From Parcubacteria group bacterium (GTDB lineage Bacteria > Patescibacteriota > Minisyncoccia > Moranbacterales > UBA11712), in the NCBI GenBank assembly GCA_041659685.1, contig JBAZXV010000003.1:2040-66039 (forward strand): a DNA stretch of 64,000 bases, in the 5' to 3' direction. Positions 8,103 through 39,149 of this stretch are shown one piece after another. The translations under genes and the position numbers were made by a program. The first letter of the stretch is position 1. Each line of letters starts with the position of its first letter. The notes below the pieces were generated by a model, which had not been told where the DNA came from, did not search any database, and was given only the letters and a program-made list of their open reading frames with translations.

Positions 8103-9065
8103 ATGGCTCAAAAATCAAGCCTTCTGGCCATTCTCAAGGCAATCATCATGGTTATCTTCCTACCGATTACTTTGATTTGGATTGTTTGGAAAAAGACCGA
8201 CTGGGAAAAAAGAAACAAATGGATCGCAACCGCCGCTGTCGTGGTTGTTTTTTTGTTCATGATCCCGTCCGATGAGAAAAAAGATCCTGTTGAGCAAAAA
8301 GCGGCTACGCAAGCAGAAAATCAAGTCCGAAGCGAGAATCAATCAACTGAAACTGTTGCGACAGAAGTGGAGCAACTTGCCGGCGATCAGAAAGAAGAAA
8401 TGCAAAAACCGGAAGGAGAAATATTCAAAGTGGCTCACGTTGTTGACGGCGACACAATCAAACTCGAGAACGGCCAAGTGGTGCGATATATTGGAATTGA
8501 TACTCCGGAAACAGTCGATCCCAGAAAACCGGTGCAATGTTTTGGAAAGGAAGCGAGCTCCAAAAACAAAGAGCTGGTCGAAGGAAAAGAGGTGAGGCTC
8601 GTGAAAGATGTTTCCGAAACTGACAAATATGACCGGCTTCTCCGGTATATTTATGTCGGTGATATTTTCGTGAATGATTATCTCGCGCGAAACGGCTTTG
8701 CCAAATCTTCGACTTATCCGCCGGATGTGAAATATCAGGAACAATTCAAAAAAGCCGAAGAAGAAGCGAGAATCAATAAGCGGGGCCTATGGGCCGAAGG
8801 CGCTTGTCAAACCGAAACCGCACCCGAGGAAAAAACTCCAGCCTCATCCCCCGCCCCGTCGACCCAGGCTCCGGCACCAGCGAGCGTGACCGCACCCGTT
8901 CAATCGACGACTCCAAGCTCAACCGGAACTTTTGCCTGCAACTGCTCGAAAACCTGTCCTCAAATGAGCTCCTGCGCCGAAGCTCAATATCAGCTCAATG
9001 TCTGCGGCTGCACGAGAAGAGACGCCGACCACGACGGCATCGCCTGCGACGCGGATTGCCAGTGA
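8103..9065 (+). CDS. membrane-anchored thermonuclease (SNase family) with C-terminal Excalibur Ca-binding domain
   Basis: SNase motifs (VVDGDTIKL, RYIGIDTPE, DRLLRYIYV) are present. The N-terminus has a TM helix. The C-terminus has a Cys-rich DxDxDGxxC Excalibur signature (DADHDGIACDADC). Confidence 0.85.
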   Translation: MAQKSSLLAILKAIIMVIFLPITLIWIVWKKTDWEKRNKWIATAAVVVVFLFMIPSDEKKDPVEQKAATQAENQVRSENQSTETVATEVEQLAGDQKEEMQKPEGEIFKVAHVVDGDTIKLENGQVVRYIGIDTPETVDPRKPVQCFGKEASSKNKELVEGKEVRLVKDVSETDKYDRLLRYIYVGDIFVNDYLARNGFAKSSTYPPDVKYQEQFKKAEEEARINKRGLWAEGACQTETAPEEKTPASSPAPSTQAPAPASVTAPVQSTTPSSTGTFACNCSKTCPQMSSCAEAQYQLNVCGCTRRDADHDGIACDADCQ

Positions 9066-9114: not shown

Positions 9115-9894
9115 ATGATTAAACGCTTTTTTGATAAAATAATTATCATCATTCTTATCCTTGAAATAAGTTGGTTTATTTTTATTTATTCCCATAATAG
9201 TACTCTTATTCAAGATATTTTAAAAAACATAAAAACGGATGCGTGGACTGCCATAGGGACTATATTTTTGGGCATGGTAGCATTACTTACGTTTTTCTAT
9301 GACAGATATAAAAATAGAAGAGCAAAAGTATCTATGTTAATTAACACCGTTCCGCCTGACTGTCATCAAATCGAACTTACCAATTCAAAAACTGGAGAAT
9401 TTATTTCGCAAAGTATCTATATAAGAATAAGAGTTGAACACATAGGAGGAAATTCTGCCGAAGATGCCGAAATAATGGTTTCAAATTTTTGGATTGTTAA
9501 TGATCATGGGGGGAAAATTGTAAAAAAAGCCTTTCTTCCGATGAATCTCACATGGAGTCATTTTGGCGGAAAAAAAAGGAGCGTACCCCGAGGACTATTT
9601 AGATACTGTGATTTTGGAAGATTTCAACCAAAATATACAAATAATACCCATACTATATTGCGGCTAGACACTGCAGTCCAACCCAATAGAGTGAGCGACG
9701 GTGAAATTCCCAATGTTATCGAGCCCGGAAAATATGAATTCGAGCTTATTCTTAGCGGCGTAAATTCAAATTTCATAAGAAAAAGATGGATTTTAGAGTT
9801 TAAAAAAAATTGGAGCGATGATGAAAGCGAAATGCTTAATGAACATATAATAATAAAGGAGAGAAAATGGTATAATTTTTTTGCGAATATTTAG
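9115..9894 (+). CDS. hypothetical membrane protein (2 N-terminal TM helices) in an AT-rich island
   Basis: Very AT-rich ORF. Its stop is 3 nt from the start of the next gene (operon). Confidence 0.55.
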   Translation: MIKRFFDKIIIIILILEISWFIFIYSHNSTLIQDILKNIKTDAWTAIGTIFLGMVALLTFFYDRYKNRRAKVSMLINTVPPDCHQIELTNSKTGEFISQSIYIRIRVEHIGGNSAEDAEIMVSNFWIVNDHGGKIVKKAFLPMNLTWSHFGGKKRSVPRGLFRYCDFGRFQPKYTNNTHTILRLDTAVQPNRVSDGEIPNVIEPGKYEFELILSGVNSNFIRKRWILEFKKNWSDDESEMLNEHIIIKERKWYNFFANI

Positions 9895-9897
9895 AAT

Positions 9898-10416
9898 ATG
9901 GACAAAGAAAAAATTATTCAGCCACATGCCAGAGGCGAATATGATAAACTTAATGATTGCTATGAGGGGTTAGCTCAAAAAGTGACAGACTCATTGAATG
10001 AAACAGAAATTGGGATTTATTCTGATTGTTTTTTGCTTCATGCTAGAAATTTAATTGATTTTTTGTGCAATAAAGAGAAAAAAGACTATTTCAAGTGTCC
10101 AAAATGTAAATTACATATTTCAAGAGGCTATACACCCGATGATGTGGTTGCATCTGATTTCTTCTGCGATAAAAATCCACCCTCGAAAAAAACAGATATC
10201 CTTACCGAAGCAGAATATGACAGAATTAATAAACAACTTTCTCATATAACCCGTGCACGTTTGAAAGGTCAAATTAATTTTTTTGATGAAAGAAAATTAT
10301 TTGAAAGTATCTTTAATAATATTAAGGACGAATTGAAAAATTTTGATCAAAAAATAAATCAAGAATACGATTCATTGAAAGCCCGAGACTTAAGAATAAT
10401 TGACAGAGAATCTTAA
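9898..10416 (+). CDS. hypothetical protein, possibly HEPN-like (CxxC plus R-x6-H motif)
   Basis: 172-aa ORF translationally coupled to 9115..9894. Contains CPKC and RINKQLSH (Rx6H) motifs. The HEPN assignment is an inference only. Confidence 0.5.
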   Translation: MDKEKIIQPHARGEYDKLNDCYEGLAQKVTDSLNETEIGIYSDCFLLHARNLIDFLCNKEKKDYFKCPKCKLHISRGYTPDDVVASDFFCDKNPPSKKTDILTEAEYDRINKQLSHITRARLKGQINFFDERKLFESIFNNIKDELKNFDQKINQEYDSLKARDLRIIDRES

Positions 10417-10426
10417 AAAATTAAAT

Positions 10427-10455
10427 AAAATAGAACTTCTATAGAGTCTCCCAAG
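10427..10455 (+). repeat. degenerate copy of the double-palindrome repeat (AAATAGAACTTCTATAGAGTCTC)
   Basis: Similar to the TAGAAGCTTCTATAGAGGCCTCTA family. Confidence 0.55.
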
Positions 10456-10596
10456 TTTCAATTTGAGCGAAGCACGAGTGAAAAGCAGTTTTTTTGACTA
10501 TTTAGATCTTCTGTGGTAGCCTTTTTCGCTAAAAGTAGGTTACTGCATTAAGCGTATAAATTATTAAGATAGTATCAATTGTGATATAATAAAACT

Positions 10597-11205
10597 ATGT
10601 TTGATGACAGAAAAGCGACACAATTACTGAATTATCTTGCACAAAAAGAAGGTGGCAAGATTAACTTCTTAAAGTCGATGAAACTTGTTTATCTCATTGA
10701 TAAGTTTCATTTGAGAAAATACGGCAAAACAATTACAGGCGACCTTTATTATGCAATGAGTAAGGGTCCAGTTGCTTCAAATACTAAAGATATTTGCAAG
10801 TATATACTTCGAGATGATATGGACTATGGAAAAAATGACTATTATGACAAATACATAAAAAAAGGTCGAGTAAAGTTTACTCTTCAATCTATTCAACAGC
10901 CCGACCTTGAGTATTTCTCCGAAGTAGAGATTGAATCTATAGATGCGGTATATGAACAATTCAAGGGTTTCAGCGGTTTTAAATTAGTTGACATTACTCA
11001 CGACACATTTGAATGGAAATGCAAAAGTGAATTTTTAAAAAAAGGAGCCTTGAGAGAGCAAATGAGGTTAAGTGATTTTTTAATCGATCAAAGATATTCT
11101 GAAAGAAGCCCCTTAAGAATATTCAATACAACAAAAACTGATTTAGAAAGGGTTTCAAAAACTTATGATCTAATTAGAAATACTCGGCTGTCTTGTGAAT
11201 GTTGA
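10597..11205 (+). CDS. Panacea-domain (DUF4065 / SocA-like) protein, putative PanA antitoxin
   Basis: N-terminal region LLNYLAQKEGG..KLVYLID..YG..ITGDLYYAMSKGPV matches the DUF4065 signature (KL.Y.....G......A...GPV). Confidence 0.72.
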   Translation: MFDDRKATQLLNYLAQKEGGKINFLKSMKLVYLIDKFHLRKYGKTITGDLYYAMSKGPVASNTKDICKYILRDDMDYGKNDYYDKYIKKGRVKFTLQSIQQPDLEYFSEVEIESIDAVYEQFKGFSGFKLVDITHDTFEWKCKSEFLKKGALREQMRLSDFLIDQRYSERSPLRIFNTTKTDLERVSKTYDLIRNTRLSCEC

Positions 11206-11214
11206 TTGAATACT

Positions 11215-11673
11215 ATGAAGCGCATCAAGCAGATTGAAGAAGAAATTACTAAGGGTGTTGGTGCAGTTTTCAGATTCATAAACCCAGAATATTCAACGAG
11301 CATTCACCACTTTAAAATTCTTATAGGTATTGATAAATCGAAAGCAAAAGATGTTTTGCTTTTTCTAACCTGCACCTCAAAAAGTATTGTGATGAGAAGC
11401 TATGTGTTGATAAGTAATGTATTAATTATAAATAAAGATGAATATTGCGAATTAAGTGAAGAAACCTCAATTTTATGTAATGATATTGAAACTGTAAATA
11501 TTGATGACCTAGTTGGAAAATATCTCTCAGATTGCGAATTTAAGGTTTGCGAACGAATTAGTGATGATTTGTTAATTCGCATTTACCAAGTTATAAAAGA
11601 TTCGAGAGAGGTTAGCAAAAAACATAAAAAAATTATAAGAAAAAATTTGAACCAGAAAGGGATCATTGATTGA
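11215..11673 (+). CDS. hypothetical protein, candidate cognate toxin of the upstream Panacea antitoxin
   Basis: The ORF begins 10 nt after the stop of 10597..11205. No recognisable domain. The role is inferred from gene-pair architecture. Confidence 0.5.
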   Translation: MKRIKQIEEEITKGVGAVFRFINPEYSTSIHHFKILIGIDKSKAKDVLLFLTCTSKSIVMRSYVLISNVLIINKDEYCELSEETSILCNDIETVNIDDLVGKYLSDCEFKVCERISDDLLIRIYQVIKDSREVSKKHKKIIRKNLNQKGIID

Positions 11674-11700: not shown

Positions 11701-11778
11701 ACGGCCCGTAAGGCCTGTTTTTCTTTTTTTATGACTCTGTTAAAATGAAATAGAAGCTTCTATAGAGGCCTCTAAAAG
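11701..11778 (+). repeat. composite repeat: GGCCCGTAAGGCC hairpin + T-run, CTCTGTTAAAATGAAA, double palindrome
   Basis: Near-identical to 17322-17390. Confidence 0.75.
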
Positions 11779-12446: not shown

Positions 12447-13463
12447 ATGGAGAAAAATAATTTTAGCCAAGGCGAGATAGTCATCTATAAAACCCCTCAA
12501 AAAGAGGTGGAATTGAAAGTGCGTTTTGAAAAAGAAAATATCTGGTTGAATCAAAATCAAATCGCCCTACTTTTTGGCACGCAGAGGCCGGCAATCACCA
12601 AACATCTAAAGAATATTTTTGAAAGCGGAGAGCTTAAGGAAAAAGTGGTTAGTTCCATTTTGGAACTAACCACCGAGCATGGGGCCATCAAAGGAAAAAC
12701 GCAAACAAACAAGGTGAAATTTTATAATTTGGACGCTGTCATTTCTGTTGGCTATAGAGTAAATTCCCAAAGAGCCACGCAGTTTCGAATATGGGCGACC
12801 AAAATTTTGAAGCAATATTTGGTCAAGGGCTATGCCATCCATGAAAAACGCCTTTTGGAGACCCAAAGCAAATTTCATGAACTGCAAGAGTCGATTTTGT
12901 TTTTGCAAAAACAGTCAAAAAAGAAATTGCTGAAAGGCCAGGAAACGGAAATTTTGAATTTGCTTTCTGATTATTCCAAGACCCTCACTTTGCTGGAAAA
13001 ATACGACAAAGAAAAACTGGGCAGCCCCAAAGGAGCAAAAACAAAATTTGTTTTGAGATATGCCGATTGCGCGGGAATCATCGCCAAGCTCAAAAAAGAG
13101 CTGATTGCCAAAAAAGAGGCCGGCGATCTGTTCGGGCAGGCAAGAGGCGGAAGTTTTGAGGGGATTATCAAAGGACTTTATCAAACATTCGGCAAAAAAG
13201 AACTTTATCCATTGATCGAGGACAAAGCTTCTCATTTGCTCTATCTCATAATCAAAGATCACCCATTCTCCGACGGCAACAAGCGCTCGGCGGCGTTTTT
13301 GTTCGTCTATTTTTTGGATAAGGCAGACTATCTTTTCAAAAAGTCCGGCGAACGGAAAATCAATGACAACGCGCTCACCGCTTTGGCGCTTCTCATTGCT
13401 GAAAGCAATCCGAAAGACAAGGATGTTTTGATAAAAATCATAACCAACTTATTGGGTGATTGA
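12447..13463 (+). CDS. RhuM-family virulence protein with C-terminal Fic/Doc domain
   Basis: N-terminal RhuM-like block (IWLNQNQIALLFG..RPAITKHLKNIF..FRIWATKILKQYLVKGY) is present. The C-terminal Fic/Doc motif HPFSDGNKRSAAF matches HxFx(D/E)GNxR. Confidence 0.8.
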   Translation: MEKNNFSQGEIVIYKTPQKEVELKVRFEKENIWLNQNQIALLFGTQRPAITKHLKNIFESGELKEKVVSSILELTTEHGAIKGKTQTNKVKFYNLDAVISVGYRVNSQRATQFRIWATKILKQYLVKGYAIHEKRLLETQSKFHELQESILFLQKQSKKKLLKGQETEILNLLSDYSKTLTLLEKYDKEKLGSPKGAKTKFVLRYADCAGIIAKLKKELIAKKEAGDLFGQARGGSFEGIIKGLYQTFGKKELYPLIEDKASHLLYLIIKDHPFSDGNKRSAAFLFVYFLDKADYLFKKSGERKINDNALTALALLIAESNPKDKDVLIKIITNLLGD

Positions 13464-13591: not shown

Positions 13592-13762
13592 ATGGCTGAG
13601 AAAAAAGGTATAATCAAGCTTAAGAAAGCGAGTGCGTATAGTTTTTCCGTGACCATCCCGAAAGAAATCATCGAGAAATATAAATGGAGGGAAAAACAAA
13701 AGCTGGTCGTCACCGACAAAGGCCGCGGGAAGATAGAGATCAGCGATTGGCGGAGGAAGTGA
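13592..13762 (+). CDS. small AbrB/MazE/SpoVT-like (looped-hinge helix) DNA-binding protein, multicopy family
   Basis: 56 aa, below the ORF-track cutoff. Motif SFSVTIPKEIIEKY...DKGRGKIEISDWRR resembles the swapped-hairpin AbrB fold. A paralog lies at 18396..18575. Confidence 0.6.
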   Translation: MAEKKGIIKLKKASAYSFSVTIPKEIIEKYKWREKQKLVVTDKGRGKIEISDWRRK

Positions 13763-13820: not shown

Positions 13821-14414
13821 ATGCCAGACACAGACCCATTACAAGATCAGGAAGGATTGTTGAGCATTGAGACTCCGCTAGTGTTCGCAGATGGAACGAC
13901 TTTTTTCAAAAACCTTGCCAAGGACTACATTGTCCATGAAAGAGGTTTTTTTATTTTGGGCCCGTCTGGTGTCGGCAAAAGCCATTATTACCGCAACCAG
14001 AAAGAGGGCGAAAAGCATTGGATCGATGCAGACCGGGTATGGCGCTGGTCCAAAGCGATGCCAAAAGGAGCTTGGTGGGAAAAAGGATTGGAAGTGTCTC
14101 AAGACGTTGAGTCTAAATGCGATATTATTACTGAAGAGGCGAAAAAAAAGGGCTTTTGGCTGATCGGCTCGGCCAATAATTGGCTGGTTCCGGATGCCAT
14201 CGTAATTCCGCATTGGCGCACTCATGTCAAATTCATAAAAAAAAGAGAACTCAATTTTGACGGAGGAGCGCGGTCAACTCCCAAAGATCTGGCCCAGGTA
14301 AAGAGTCACCGAAAATTAATCTCGCTTTGGGCAAAAAAAGGAGTGCCTAAGTTCAATTCCGTTGAGGAAGCGATAATGCACTTGGAAAATATTTATCATA
14401 AAAAATATAAATAA
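13821..14414 (+). CDS. P-loop NTPase (kinase-like) of unknown function
   Basis: Walker A motif GPSGVGKSH is present. The rest of the sequence is not assignable. Confidence 0.6.
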   Translation: MPDTDPLQDQEGLLSIETPLVFADGTTFFKNLAKDYIVHERGFFILGPSGVGKSHYYRNQKEGEKHWIDADRVWRWSKAMPKGAWWEKGLEVSQDVESKCDIITEEAKKKGFWLIGSANNWLVPDAIVIPHWRTHVKFIKKRELNFDGGARSTPKDLAQVKSHRKLISLWAKKGVPKFNSVEEAIMHLENIYHKKYK

Positions 14415-17321: not shown

Positions 17322-17390
17322 ATTGCCTGTTTTTCTTTTTTTGCGGCTCTGTTAAAATGAAATAGAAGCTTCTATAGAGCCCTCTATGAT
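17322..17390 (+). repeat. composite repeat: GCCTGTTTTTCTTTTTTT, CTCTGTTAAAATGAAA, double palindrome
   Basis: Near-identical to 11701-11778. Confidence 0.75.
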
Positions 17391-17484: not shown

Positions 17485-18333
17485 ATGGGAAAAAACAAAA
17501 AACAAATCGCCATTTTTGAAGGCAAAAAAATCCGCCGCCATTGGGACGGGAAAAAAGAAAAATGGTATTTTTCGGTCGTGGATATCGTTGCCGTGTTGAC
17601 AGACAGCGAAAATCCGCAGGTTTACTGGCGTGTGCTGAAAAAACGCCTGCTTGACGAGGGTTCAACTGAAACCGTTACAAAATGTAACGGTTTGAAAATG
17701 CGAGCTTCCGACGGAAAAATGAGAATAACCGATGTCGCAGACGTCGAAACACTGCTGCGGCTCGTTCAATCTGTACCGAGTCCAAAAGCCGAACCGATCA
17801 AACTCTGGCTCGCGCGGGTCGGCTATGAAAGAATGCAAGAAACGATTGATCCGGAAAAATCCATAAACAGGGCTAGGATGAACTGGCAAAGGCTCGGCCG
17901 GAGCCAAAAGTGGATCCAGCAGAGAATGATGGGCCAGGAAACCCGAAACAAGCTCACCGATTATTGGAAAGATCACGAAATCAGCCAACAAGAGGAATAT
18001 GCGATTCTGACGAATATTATTCACGAAGAATGGAGCGACCTGTCGGTGCAAGGGCACAAAAAACTGAAAGGGATCAAGGCTGAAAACCTGCGCGACCATA
18101 TGACGGAAGCAGAACTAATTTTCACGGCGCTGGCCGAACTTTCAACCCGCCAAATCGCCGAAACGGATCAGGCAACCGGATTCGAGGAAAACAAATCTCC
18201 GGCGAGAAGCGGCGGACGGATCGCCAAGCGCGCCCGGCTGGATCTGGAAAGAAAAACCGGAAAAAAGATTGTGACCAAAGAAAATTTCAAATTGCCAGGC
18301 GGAAAAACCAAACAAATTCGCAACAGGAAATAA
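17485..18333 (+). CDS. DNA-damage-inducible protein D-like / Bro-N domain protein
   Basis: N-terminal Bro-N-like region (IRRHWDGKKEKWYFSVVDIVAVLT). The C-terminal region aligns by eye with DinD. Confidence 0.65.
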   Translation: MGKNKKQIAIFEGKKIRRHWDGKKEKWYFSVVDIVAVLTDSENPQVYWRVLKKRLLDEGSTETVTKCNGLKMRASDGKMRITDVADVETLLRLVQSVPSPKAEPIKLWLARVGYERMQETIDPEKSINRARMNWQRLGRSQKWIQQRMMGQETRNKLTDYWKDHEISQQEEYAILTNIIHEEWSDLSVQGHKKLKGIKAENLRDHMTEAELIFTALAELSTRQIAETDQATGFEENKSPARSGGRIAKRARLDLERKTGKKIVTKENFKLPGGKTKQIRNRK

Positions 18334-19933: not shown

Positions 19934-20623
19934 ATGCGAGAAATATTCAAAGGGATTGTAAAGAATTTTAAAAGAACCGGCGTGCTACAAGAGGATGTCG
20001 CAATATTTTTAAGAATGCATGATTGTGAAGACACCATAAAACATGTTAATACTGTTGCTGAGGAAGCAAAAATATTGGCATCCCGTTTTTTTGAAAGCCA
20101 GGAAGACGCCTTTTCTGCGGGACTGCTTCATGATGTCAGCGTTTTGTTTCCCGAAGAGGATCGATTGAAGATTGCGAATGAACTCAAAATCGATGTTTTG
20201 CCGGAGGAAAAAATTTATCCGGCCATTCTCCACCAAAAAATTTCTCAAGTTATGGCTCGAGAAATTTTTGGAATTACGGATGAAAATGTTTTGAACGCAA
20301 TCGGTTGTCACACCACTCTCAAGGAAAATGCATCGGTTTTGGATAAAATTGTTTTTATATCCGATAAAATAAGGTGGGACCAGAAATATGATGCGCCTTT
20401 CAAGAGCGATGTTTCAAAAGCTTTGGATATTTCATTGGATGAATCCTGTTTTTGTTATTTGAATTATCTGTGGAACAGAAAAGAAAGTCTTGCGGTTGTG
20501 CATCCATGGATGGCAGCTGCCTACAGACAGCTGGGTAATGATTTAAAAAAATTCGGATTTAGTTTGATATATAATGATGATGGCAAAATAGAAGCTTCTA
20601 TGGAGGCCTCTAATAAAAATTAA
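19934..20623 (+). CDS. HD-domain protein, YqeK-like (bis(5'-nucleosyl)-tetraphosphatase family)
   Basis: H..V...A..LA.RF ... LLHDV ... YHT ... ISDKI pattern is typical of YqeK HD hydrolases. The 3' end reads through a double-palindrome repeat at 20586-20612. Confidence 0.72.
   Translation: MREIFKGIVKNFKRTGVLQEDVAIFLRMHDCEDTIKHVNTVAEEAKILASRFFESQEDAFSAGLLHDVSVLFPEEDRLKIANELKIDVLPEEKIYPAILHQKISQVMAREIFGITDENVLNAIGCHTTLKENASVLDKIVFISDKIRWDQKYDAPFKSDVSKALDISLDESCFCYLNYLWNRKESLAVVHPWMAAAYRQLGNDLKKFGFSLIYNDDGKIEASMEASNKN
20586..20612 (+). repeat. double-palindrome repeat inside the 3' end of the HD gene
   Basis: AATAGAAGCTTCTATGGAGGCCTCTAATAA. Confidence 0.75.
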
Positions 20624-20825: not shown

Positions 20826-21545
20826 ATGGAAGAAAAATTACTTACAATTGGTCAAGCTGCGGAATATTTGGGGGTTTCTTTGAATACACTTCGCCGTTGG
20901 GATGAAAGCGGTAAATTGGTTGCGATCAAAAAAGAGGGCGGGACTCATCGTTATTACCGTGAAGATGATTTGGAAATATTTTCCAGTGATTTAACGAGGT
21001 TTGCTACGGAATGGATCCGAAATGGAGTTGAATTTCCAGGCACATTTTATTGCCAGACAAGTTCAATTTTTAACGCGAAATTGACGAAAATGCAAAGCGC
21101 GCTGATGCAAAAGCCAGGGTTTGAAGAGCTATATTCCTTGATTGTTTTAATTGCCGGAGAAATTGGCGATAATTCATTTGCTCACAATTTAGGGAAGTGG
21201 CCGGATACCGCGGGAATCTTTTTTGGTTATGATCTTGAAAAACGAATAATTGTTCTTGCTGACAGAGGATTGGGTATCTTGGAAACACTGCGACAAGTTC
21301 GACCGAAACTTCCAAATCATGTGGAAGCGGTAAAAGTAGCATTTACGGAATTTGTTTCCGGGCGTGCGCCGGAAAAGCGAGGCAACGGCCTTAAGCTTGT
21401 TCGCGAGGTTGTCACCGATCAGCCAATTGATTTATTTTTTATCAGCGGTGACGCCGAAGTGCGCATGAAAGGGCAAAATAAAGTATTTCGTGTTACGCGC
21501 GGCCAGCATATTGTGAGAGGATGTCTGGCTAAAATAGAATTCTAA
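20826..21545 (+). CDS. MerR-family HTH fused to a GHKL (HATPase_c, RsbW-like) ATPase/kinase domain
   Basis: N-terminal TIGQAAEYLGVSLNTLRRWDESGKL matches the MerR HTH. The C-terminal region has an N-box-like EIGDN..AHN and a G-box-like GRAPEKRGNGLKLV. Confidence 0.65.
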   Translation: MEEKLLTIGQAAEYLGVSLNTLRRWDESGKLVAIKKEGGTHRYYREDDLEIFSSDLTRFATEWIRNGVEFPGTFYCQTSSIFNAKLTKMQSALMQKPGFEELYSLIVLIAGEIGDNSFAHNLGKWPDTAGIFFGYDLEKRIIVLADRGLGILETLRQVRPKLPNHVEAVKVAFTEFVSGRAPEKRGNGLKLVREVVTDQPIDLFFISGDAEVRMKGQNKVFRVTRGQHIVRGCLAKIEF

Positions 21546-38703: not shown

Positions 38704-38807
38704 TTTGGTTTTCTTTAGCTGGTTAAATGCCAGCGGAAAACACAAAAGGCCTCCCGCTCGCCGACAACCCCTTTCGGAGTTGTCCACTACCCTTTCGAGT
38801 AGCGACA

Positions 38808-38858
38808 TTACTACATGATAGCGAAACGGAAAGCCGTTTCTATGTAGTAATGTTTTTA
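38808..38858. promoter_or_regulatory. inverted repeat CATTACTACATG-N25-CATGTAGTAATG upstream of the FGE-domain gene
   Basis: Perfect 12-bp arms, seen directly. Function unknown. Confidence 0.4.
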
Positions 38859-39149
38859 GGTGCCATGCTCCGACGCAACGTCGGAGTTTAGGCGTAAATT
38901 GTTGGCTTTATTATACTATTTCAAAAAAAACGCGCAAGTAGCAAACATTCTCCCCGCACTCTTCGGGATGTTCGAGTGGATATTTTTGCACGGGGCGAAA
39001 ATACTTTGCCAGCCAAATAACTCTTTTTTTCGAATCTGGAATATCCATTTCTAAAGTTGAACTCTGAAGTGACCATGGCGGACGAATGAAAGAAAACGCT
39101 CATTTTGCAGGTATAAATAAAAAGATTGTCAATATTTTTTACACGCCTG

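What the first reader, a model, noticed from the sequence alone, without database searches (positions are those of the whole stretch)
10597..11673. Panacea-domain (DUF4065) antitoxin-like gene followed by an uncharacterised 152-aa partner: candidate new PanT toxin
The first ORF has the DUF4065/Panacea signature (KLVYLID…YG…GDLYYAMSKGPV). Panacea domains are established as promiscuous antitoxin domains paired with highly diverse toxins. The tightly linked downstream ORF (11215..11673) has no recognisable domain. Given its position in an AT-rich accessory island, it is a good candidate for a new toxin family.
Basis: partly seen in the sequence, partly recalled or inferred. Interest (0 to 1): 0.7.

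Follow-up and report, generated by a model that had tools for sequence, protein, structure and literature searches.

The report
Panacea antitoxin with divergent MazF-like toxin
The two genes form a real, strictly conserved toxin-antitoxin-type pair, but the "unknown" partner is a very divergent relative of the well-known MazF/PemK RNA-cutting toxins, and Panacea antitoxins paired with MazF-like toxins have already been validated experimentally in other bacteria.

Summary
ORF A (10597-11205) is a Panacea/DUF4065 protein (PF13274, E=5e-23, GPV motif present). ORF B (11215-11673, 152 aa) lies 9 nt downstream, in a low-GC island (0.31 against 0.46). Scanned alone, ORF B hits no family.

MazF's catalytic Thr is kept (T54; Thr or Ser in all but 2 of 107 members). 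The catalytic Arg position is His in ORF B (His 60, Arg 45 across the family).

In all 24 loci examined the gene lies directly downstream of a Panacea gene (gap -16 to +17 nt), with unrelated flanks. The two proteins diverge together, and both are under purifying selection. The family comes almost entirely from uncultured bacteria, mainly CPR/Patescibacteria.

Verdict: a PanAT type II-like module with a divergent MazF-superfamily toxin, probably an RNase. PanA:MazF-like pairs are already known (clusters T5, T6 and T25; two validated). This is a new clade of a known kind, and interest is modest. Toxicity and neutralisation remain untested.

The parts
10494..10522 (+). Promoter-like element upstream of panA: -35 TTGACT (10494-10499), 17-nt spacer, TGg + TAGCCT (10514-10522)
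   Evidence: Read from the sequence. The TTGAC...TG(G/A)TAGCCTTT block is conserved in the homologous upstream regions of L003 and L001, while the rest of the intergenic region is not. The consensus scan did not call it. Function is inferred.
10582..10590 (+). Perfect extended -10 (TGaTATAAT) ending 6 nt before the panA ATG; a possible second promoter giving a leaderless or near-leaderless mRNA
   Evidence: Sequence. Identical in L003 and absent in L001. Inference only.
10597..11205 (+). panA: Panacea (DUF4065) domain protein of 202 aa with no N-terminal accessory domain. The Panacea core spans about residues 1-141 and includes the GPV motif (residues 57-59). A conserved extension of about 60 aa follows (residues 142-202).
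   Evidence: PF13274 E=5e-23. NCBI names the identical protein 'Panacea domain-containing protein'. GPV is conserved at G24/P23/V22 in 24 cognate PanAs, and the post-Panacea extension is conserved in length and motifs. dN/dS is 0.076.
11215..11673 (+). panT candidate: a divergent MazF/PemK-fold protein of 152 aa. Residues H32 and T54 sit at the catalytic Arg and Thr positions of MazF. Near-invariant family residues are G16, C88-N89, S130 and K138. It has an extra N-terminal helix (2-13) and an extra C-terminal helix (135-147).
11703..11731 (+). Weak terminator-like element after panT: a GGCC-cgtaa-GGCC hairpin followed by a T-rich run
   Evidence: Read from the sequence. The stem has only 4 bp, so the terminator scan did not call it. 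The T-run and its downstream flank recur before another copy of the intergenic motif at 17362. Tentative.

Best explanation
The locus is a two-gene, antitoxin-first PanAT module of the type II toxin-antitoxin kind. It was acquired horizontally into a variable, low-GC stretch of a Parcubacteria (CPR) genome. ORF B is a very divergent member of the MazF/PemK endoribonuclease superfamily. It most likely arrests growth by cutting RNA (mRNA, rRNA or tRNA) and so blocking translation. For this it would use a MazF-type active site in which the catalytic Thr is kept (T54) and the general acid/base Arg is replaced by His (H32). ORF A (PanA) most likely neutralises it by direct protein-protein binding. 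The contact would be made either by the Panacea core with its GPV motif or, as I think more likely, by the conserved extension of about 60 aa that follows the Panacea domain in every cognate PanA. Shown here: domain identity, fold, homology chain, residue mapping, obligate pairing, co-divergence, purifying selection and low GC. Inferred: toxicity, RNase activity, direct binding, which part of PanA neutralises, and the biological role (stabilising the island, or abortive-infection defence against phage).
Against: No experiment has been done on this pair. ORF B alone does not reach any Pfam threshold. The sequence link to MazF is transitive and each step is weak (E about 1e-3 to 1e-5); the strong evidence is structural. 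The canonical catalytic Arg is His in ORF B, and whether His supports catalysis is unknown. In Kurata et al. 2022, one of four tested MazF-type PanTs (F. xanthum) was not toxic in E. coli, and in another (C. bovis) both the PanT and its PanA were toxic. Overall only 9 of 25 tested PanAT pairs were validated. The tail of ORF A's own clade is basic and ends in CxC, unlike the acidic, aromatic-ended tails of most cognate PanAs, so the tail-neutralisation idea is least secure for this particular protein. No complex model could be computed.
Confidence: 0.7

Rival explanations
1. The components are the same, but the main role is anti-phage abortive infection rather than addiction or stabilisation. 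Panacea would act as a sensor that releases or activates the MazF-like RNase on infection. This is a rival about role and trigger, and it is compatible with the best explanation's biochemistry.
For: The NetFlax authors favour a sensor role for Panacea (PMC10440598). The pair sits among other defence or toxin-antitoxin-like genes: a RhuM+Fic/DOC protein matching PADLOC candidate PDC-S23 at E=3e-121, and a MazE-like ORF followed by a P-loop ORF. Homologous pairs lie next to RhuM again and near phage or mobile-element genes such as a Toprim primase, GP3_package and Prim-Pol.
Against: No PADLOC model matches PanA, and only a weak hit (Orf5, E=9e-4) matches ORF B. No relatives were found in the phage collection by tblastn. 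No trigger is known. Many contexts are ordinary chromosomal genes such as Amt, MFS, MscL and RNR.
Confidence: 0.3
2. ORF B has the MazF/CcdB fold but is not an RNase. It could poison DNA gyrase like CcdB, or use its family-specific conserved residues (C88, N89, S130, K138) for a different activity.
Against: All sequence-profile hits go to MazF/PemK/EndoA and none to CcdB. Both MazF catalytic columns keep chemically suitable residues across the family (H/R and T/S). The His/Arg alternation argues against a Cys-His catalytic dyad.
Confidence: 0.1
3. The pair is a conserved operon but not a toxin-antitoxin system. ORF B would be a non-toxic MazF-fold RNA- or protein-binding partner of a Panacea protein whose function is something else.
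For: About half of Panacea proteins are not in toxin-antitoxin-like loci, and 8 of 25 tested PanTs were not toxic in E. coli, including one MazF-type PanT.
Against: The pairing is obligate and tightly spaced with shuffled flanks, the pair is low in GC, its distribution is patchy, it belongs to a toxin superfamily and the catalytic positions are retained. All of these are typical of mobile toxin-antitoxin modules.
Confidence: 0.12
4. Neutralisation is of the SocAB type VI kind: PanA would act as a proteolytic adaptor that delivers the toxin to ClpXP, rather than inhibiting it by binding.
For: SocA, the founding Panacea protein, works this way (PMC8832971). ORF A has a weak hit to the SocA NCBIfam model (E=0.0014).
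Against: The SocA equivalog score is 18.4 bits against a cut-off of 190. ORF B is unrelated to SocB. Tested PanAs neutralise without ClpXP or Lon, and five pairs, including the MazF-like P. moraviensis pair, form stable complexes.
Confidence: 0.05

Closest known systems
PanAT systems with MazF/PemK-like toxins: clusters T6 (Pseudomonas moraviensis, validated), T25 (Bifidobacterium ruminantium, validated) and T5, from Kurata et al. 2022 PNAS (PMC8832971)
   Same: The PanA is a standalone Panacea protein with no N-terminal domain. The order is antitoxin first and the gap is small (-4 to +9 nt there, 9 nt here). The toxin is recognisable as EndoA/PemK/MazF only by profile or structure methods. 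The module is a mobile two-gene unit.
   Different: This family was not seen in the held part of their RefSeq-based dataset; the two Saccharibacteria entries there pair with T14, which is HigB/RelE-like. The members found here come only from metagenome assemblies, and those with a taxonomic label are mostly CPR. They are about 150 aa rather than about 110, with extra helices, and ORF B's clade has His in place of the catalytic Arg. This pair is untested.
MazEF / PemIK / Kis-Kid type II toxin-antitoxin systems (Pfam PF02452 toxins)
   Different: The antitoxin is a Panacea protein, not a MazE/AbrB, PemI or Kis protein. ORF B falls below the Pfam threshold. It has His at the Arg25 position, family-specific invariant residues C88-N89, S130 and K138, and additional N- and C-terminal helices.
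SocAB (Caulobacter crescentus) type VI toxin-antitoxin system
   Same: The antitoxin carries a Panacea domain.
   Different: SocB is a DnaN-targeting toxin unrelated to ORF B. SocA acts as a ClpXP adaptor. ORF A scores far below the SocA equivalog cut-off (18.4 against 190 bits).
CcdAB (F plasmid)
   Different: There is no sequence-profile signal to CcdB, the antitoxin is different, and the MazF-type catalytic positions are retained here.

Membership tests
PanAT (Panacea-antitoxin toxin-antitoxin systems; Kurata et al. 2022) | The antitoxin contains the Panacea/DUF4065 domain (PF13274) above threshold | tested here: met
   E=5e-23, 82.6 bits against a cut-off of 25.7; residues 28-141 cover profile positions 2-113 of 113
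PanAT (Panacea-antitoxin toxin-antitoxin systems; Kurata et al. 2022) | The conserved GPV signature motif of Panacea, reported as critical for neutralisation | tested here: met
   ORF A has SKGPVAS (G57 P58 V59). In 24 cognate PanAs the columns are G 24, P 23, V 22. The motif is described in PMC8832971.
PanAT (Panacea-antitoxin toxin-antitoxin systems; Kurata et al. 2022) | Two genes on the same strand, at most 100 nt apart | tested here: met
   The gap is 9 nt here and -16 to +17 nt in all homologous loci
PanAT (Panacea-antitoxin toxin-antitoxin systems; Kurata et al. 2022) | [quoted passage not shown] | tested here: met
   All 24 loci examined have it, spanning 18-82% identity to ORF B and several CPR lineages. 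A family member also occurs in a Melioribacteraceae MAG, but its neighbourhood was not examined.
PanAT (Panacea-antitoxin toxin-antitoxin systems; Kurata et al. 2022) | The conserved neighbourhood does not extend beyond three genes | tested here: met
   Flanking genes differ in every locus
PanAT (Panacea-antitoxin toxin-antitoxin systems; Kurata et al. 2022) | The partner is toxic and PanA relieves the toxicity; the two form a direct complex | not testable with these tools
   This needs expression and pull-down experiments.
MazF/PemK endoribonuclease toxins (PF02452) | Match to the Pfam PemK_toxin model above the gathering score | tested here: not met
   ORF B alone has no PF02452 hit even at E<=1. 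Only some family members do: 5 of 44 on re-scan (best E=4.2e-5) and 11 of 59 in precomputed calls.
MazF/PemK endoribonuclease toxins (PF02452) | MazF/Kid/CcdB SH3-like beta-barrel fold | tested here: met
MazF/PemK endoribonuclease toxins (PF02452) | Catalytic Thr (B. subtilis T48, E. coli T52) | tested here: met
   T54 aligns with it in the HMM and hhalign alignments. The family column is Thr 79, Ser 26, Gln 2 of 107. The residue's role is from PMC7354611.
MazF/PemK endoribonuclease toxins (PF02452) | Catalytic Arg (B. subtilis R25, E. coli R29) | tested here: inconclusive
   The aligned residue in ORF B is His32. The family column is His 60, Arg 45. Lys is a known natural substitute (PMC7354611), but I did not find His documented in the papers I read.
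MazF/PemK endoribonuclease toxins (PF02452) | Sequence-specific endoribonuclease activity | not testable with these tools
   Needs biochemistry
MazF/PemK endoribonuclease toxins (PF02452) | Cognate MazE/PemI/Kis-type antitoxin | tested here: not met
   The upstream gene is a Panacea protein with no MazE/AbrB domain
SocAB type VI toxin-antitoxin system | SocA equivalog antitoxin (NF047745) and a SocB toxin | tested here: not met
   18.4 bits against a cut-off of 190. ORF B has the MazF fold, not that of SocB.
CcdB gyrase poisons | Sequence-profile relationship to CcdB and its gyrase-binding C-terminal residues | tested here: inconclusive

The most novel reading that the evidence does not exclude
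The His-type, C-terminally extended clade is a functionally distinct branch of the MazF superfamily, found mainly in CPR bacteria. On this reading it would have a new RNA target or new chemistry, based on its near-invariant C88-N89, S130 and K138. It would be held in check by a previously undescribed neutralising module in the PanA C-terminal extension, with Panacea acting as a phage sensor. That would make it an abortive-infection system for bacteria that largely lack CRISPR.
Probability: 0.12. Interest if true: 0.55.

Novelty: new member of a known kind. Interest (0 to 1): 0.3.

Why it matters
If toxicity is confirmed, this adds a divergent MazF-superfamily clade, found mainly in CPR bacteria and always linked to PanA, to the catalogue of Panacea-neutralised toxins. 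That catalogue was built from RefSeq genomes and hardly sampled CPR bacteria. The natural His/Arg alternation at the MazF general acid/base position, and the 50-63 aa extension conserved in every cognate PanA, give defined handles on two open questions: how Panacea antitoxins neutralise a given toxin fold, and how plastic the MazF active site is. It would not change current understanding of toxin-antitoxin systems.

Tried and rejected
1. AF2 on the 4 close homologues gave pLDDT 41 and was unusable. It was rescued by the 43-sequence alignment.
2. The search for related loci with the broad alignment A3 failed because no stretch was conserved enough. It worked with the Arg-type sub-alignment A4.
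3. hhalign of A3 against E. coli MazF alone gave only a 10-column match around CTTQ/CTSK. The comparison became informative only with a three-sequence MazF alignment and the 107-member family.
4. The AFDB fold library was not available.
5. tblastn of ORF B and of P0069 against phages, and of P0069 against plasmids, found no match.
6. I considered whether the Saccharibacteria PanAT entries in Kurata's Dataset S1 were this family. They are not: they have an HTH-PanA and pair with T14, which is HigB/RelE-like.
7. I considered a Cys-His catalytic dyad (C88/H32). I rejected it because His32 alternates with Arg in 42% of members.
8. I considered that the double-palindrome motif flanking the pair might mark the ends of a cassette or mobile module. 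I rejected it as part of the system: it has 10 copies across the window, always ahead of genes, and it is absent from all homologous loci.
9. No inverted-repeat operator was found in the 180-nt upstream region.
10. The weak hits of ORF B to Imm8 (E=0.031), PADLOC Orf5 (E=9e-4) and GIL01 gp7 (E=0.11) were treated as noise.

Full report
**Observation**

The window has two same-strand ORFs at the stated coordinates. ORF A is 10597-11205 (202 aa) and ORF B is 11215-11673 (152 aa). They are 9 nt apart. ORF A matches Pfam PF13274 SocA_Panacea at E=5e-23, 82.6 bits against a cut-off of 25.7. An identical protein is named 'Panacea domain-containing protein [Parcubacteria group bacterium]' by NCBI. Scanned alone, ORF B has no significant hit in Pfam, NCBIfam or PHROGs. 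Its only hits are noise-level: Imm8 at E=0.031, PADLOC 'Orf5' at E=9e-4 and PDB GIL01 gp7 at E=0.11. GC is 0.30-0.31 over 10-12 kb against about 0.46 for the window.

**What ORF B is**

The word-indexed search of 5.8 billion proteins found only four close relatives at 100, 82, 82 and 67% identity. AF2 on those four gave an unusable model with pLDDT 41.

An exhaustive HMMER search of 1.84 billion cluster representatives with the four-sequence profile found 42 representatives at E<1e-3. All are 103-173 aa (most 135-160) and nearly all match over almost their full length; the best distant hits have E=5.5e-17, 3.8e-13 and 8.9e-10. A search with the broader profile raised the total to about 100 sequences. 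Of the 59 hits in that search, 11 carry a precomputed PF02452 PemK_toxin call and one is named 'PemK-like, MazF-like toxin' by JGI. On re-scanning, 5 of 44 members hit PF02452, best E=4.2e-5.

The family profile's top eight PDB sequence hits are all MazF/PemK/EndoA, at E=0.003-0.008. hhalign of the 107-member family against an alignment of verified MazFs gives a collinear 104-column alignment with P=3e-4. The verified MazFs were B. subtilis MazF (identical to 4me7_A), S. aureus MazF (identical to 4of1_A) and E. coli mazF taken from NC_000913.

ORF B is therefore a remote member of the MazF/PemK/Kid/CcdB superfamily. Compared with canonical MazF it has an extra N-terminal helix (2-13) and an extra C-terminal helix (135-147).

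**Active site**

Published work identifies Arg25 and Thr48 as the catalytic pair of Bacillus MazF. It also reports natural Lys and Ser replacements in active M. tuberculosis MazFs (PMC7354611).

In the HMM and hhalign alignments, ORF B T54 (in CTSKS; family consensus TSQ) aligns with T48 of B. subtilis MazF and T52 of E. coli MazF. ORF B H32 (in HHFKILIG; family consensus PHYFIVLN) aligns with R25 and R29. Family member P0094 has GNRFLIVLN aligned to MazF GvRPvvvlqn, which anchors this mapping.

Across 107 members the Thr column is Thr 79, Ser 26, Gln 2. The Arg column is His 60, Arg 45. The family splits into an Arg-type subgroup (43 sequences, closest to canonical PemK) and many His-type subgroups. 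ORF B's own clade of four sequences is among the His-type. Other near-invariant positions are G16 (matching MazF G6), C88-N89 on the substrate-binding strand, and S130 and K138 in the C-terminal helices.

The retention of suitable residues at both catalytic columns favours an active RNase. The His/Arg alternation argues against a Cys-His dyad.

**Is the pair real?**

Every family member whose context I could read lies directly downstream of a Panacea gene:

- The three close homologues.
- The partner of the 46%-identical PanA, P0009.
- Six distant His-type members.
- An Arg-type member from a Patescibacteria MAG.
- Thirteen loci from species-representative genomes, each with an upstream ORF matching the cognate-PanA profile at E<=1e-56.

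That makes 24 of 24, with gaps of -16 to +17 nt. The flanking genes are unrelated from locus to locus; they include RecQ, DUF559, a Toprim primase, GP3_package, an ammonium transporter, MFS, MscL, GH115, ribonucleotide reductase and rubrerythrin.

PanA and partner identities co-vary (Pearson 0.94, Spearman 0.57, n=45 locus pairs). Both genes are under purifying selection: dN/dS is 0.076 and 0.128 against L003. The pair's GC is lower than that of its flanks in 8 of 10 loci.

All 13 genome hits are CPR MAGs (Saccharibacteria, Colwellbacteria, Nomurabacteria, Paceibacterota, Moraniibacteriota) or unclassified MAGs. One family member comes from a Melioribacteraceae MAG. No relatives were found in the phage collection with ORF B or P0069, or in the plasmid collection with P0069.

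**The antitoxin**

ORF A has no N-terminal HTH, PAD1 or ZBD domain. It carries the GPV motif that Kurata et al. call the Panacea signature and report as critical for neutralisation; the columns are G24, P23, V22 in the 24 cognate PanAs.

All cognate PanAs share a post-Panacea extension of 50-63 aa with conserved motifs: H.YPEW, then M.Y.DFF, then an L..AK(E/D).F helix. In most, the last 25 residues are acidic and include FF or W near the end. This resembles MazE-type tails and the 'linear neutralisation' that the NetFlax paper describes for the Phd-C element of C. doosanense PanA (PMC10440598).

In ORF A's own clade, however, the tail is basic and ends in CxC. Which part of PanA neutralises the toxin is therefore inference.

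**Regulation**

A TTGACT-N17-TGgTAGCCT element (10494-10522) is conserved upstream in L003 and L001. The window and L003 also share a perfect extended -10 (TGaTATAAT, 10582-10590) ending 6 nt before the ATG, which suggests a leaderless transcript. No inverted-repeat operator was found, and PanA has no DNA-binding domain. Autoregulation, if it exists, is unexplained.

**Comparison with what is known**

Kurata et al. 2022 (PMC8832971) defined PanAT loci by a gap of at most 100 nt, conservation in at least two species, and no conserved operon longer than three genes. All three criteria are met here.

Their Dataset S1 lists MazF/PemK-like PanT clusters T5, T6 and T25. All are antitoxin first, with gaps of -4 to +9 nt. 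The P. moraviensis (T6) and B. ruminantium (T25) toxins are toxic, are rescued by their PanA and specifically inhibit translation. The T6 pair forms a stable complex, and neutralisation does not need ClpXP or Lon. One other MazF-type PanT was toxic but its PanA was also toxic, and a further one was not toxic in E. coli.

The only CPR entries in the held part of the dataset are two Saccharibacteria with HTH-PanAs paired to T14, which is HigB/RelE-like. The present family seems not to have been sampled.

**Verdict**

This is a well-supported PanAT module whose toxin is a divergent MazF-superfamily protein. The kind of system is known. What is new is the clade: found mainly in CPR bacteria, about 150 aa, always linked to PanA, with His or Arg at the catalytic acid/base position.

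I put 0.7 on the toxin-antitoxin reading with a MazF-type toxin. Toxicity, RNase activity and the mode of neutralisation are untested. Interest is modest (0.3).

Noticed in passing
window 3225, 7981, 11750, 13488, 17362, 18335, 19873, 20588, 22477, 36576 (all + strand); degenerate copy near 10428: A 25-nt motif made of two adjacent 12-nt palindromes, ATAGAAGCTTCTA·TAGAGGCCTCTA, occurs 10-11 times against 0.02 expected. Each copy lies in an intergenic position after one gene's end and about 25-100 nt before the next + strand gene. At 11750 and 17362 about 45 nt of upstream flank, including a T-run, is also conserved. It is not in Rfam and is absent from all related loci. It may be an operator for a dimeric regulator, a promoter-associated element or a REP-like repeat of this genome.
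   Followed up: partly
window 13592-13762 (+) and 13821-14414 (+): A 56-aa ORF matches Pfam MazE_antitoxin (AbrB/SpoVT type; 29.1 bits against a cut-off of 24.7). A 197-aa ORF with a P-loop (GPSGVGKSH) and no significant family hit begins 58 nt downstream. This may be a second toxin-antitoxin-like pair in the same variable region.
   Followed up: no
window 12447-13463 (+): A 338-aa protein combines an N-terminal RhuM domain with a C-terminal Fic/DOC domain. It matches PADLOC candidate defence family PDC-S23 at E=3e-121. A RhuM gene also follows the homologous Panacea pair on the P0002 contig.
   Followed up: partly
window 9115-9894 (+) and 9898-10416 (+): Two tightly linked ORFs of 259 aa and 172 aa lie in the same low-GC island directly upstream of the Panacea pair. 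The first has a hydrophobic N-terminus. Neither has a significant family hit, and they are not conserved next to the pair in other loci. Function unknown.
   Followed up: no
window 38763-38894 (-): Rfam match to LOOT RNA (RF03000): 70.5 bits against a gathering score of 46.4, covering the full-length model.
   Followed up: no
window 8103-9065 (+): A 320-aa protein has an N-terminal hydrophobic segment, a staphylococcal nuclease domain (E=8e-25) and a C-terminal Excalibur calcium-binding domain. It is probably a secreted or surface nuclease.
   Followed up: no
window 11140-11205 (C-terminus of ORF A); L001 and L003 equivalents: The PanA tail in this four-member clade is net basic and ends in the motif C-x-C. 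The other 20 cognate PanAs examined have mostly acidic tails, about half of them with FF or W near the end. No explanation.
   Followed up: partly
window 17485-18333 (+), 20826-21545 (+), 19934-20623 (+): A Bro-N domain protein, an HTH_17/MerR-type (excisionase-like) protein and an HD-domain protein lie downstream, interspersed with copies of the palindromic motif. Together with the toxin-antitoxin-like genes, this suggests that about 8-22 kb is a variable region rich in mobile-element genes. No integrase and no tRNA gene were found in 1-30 kb.
   Followed up: partly
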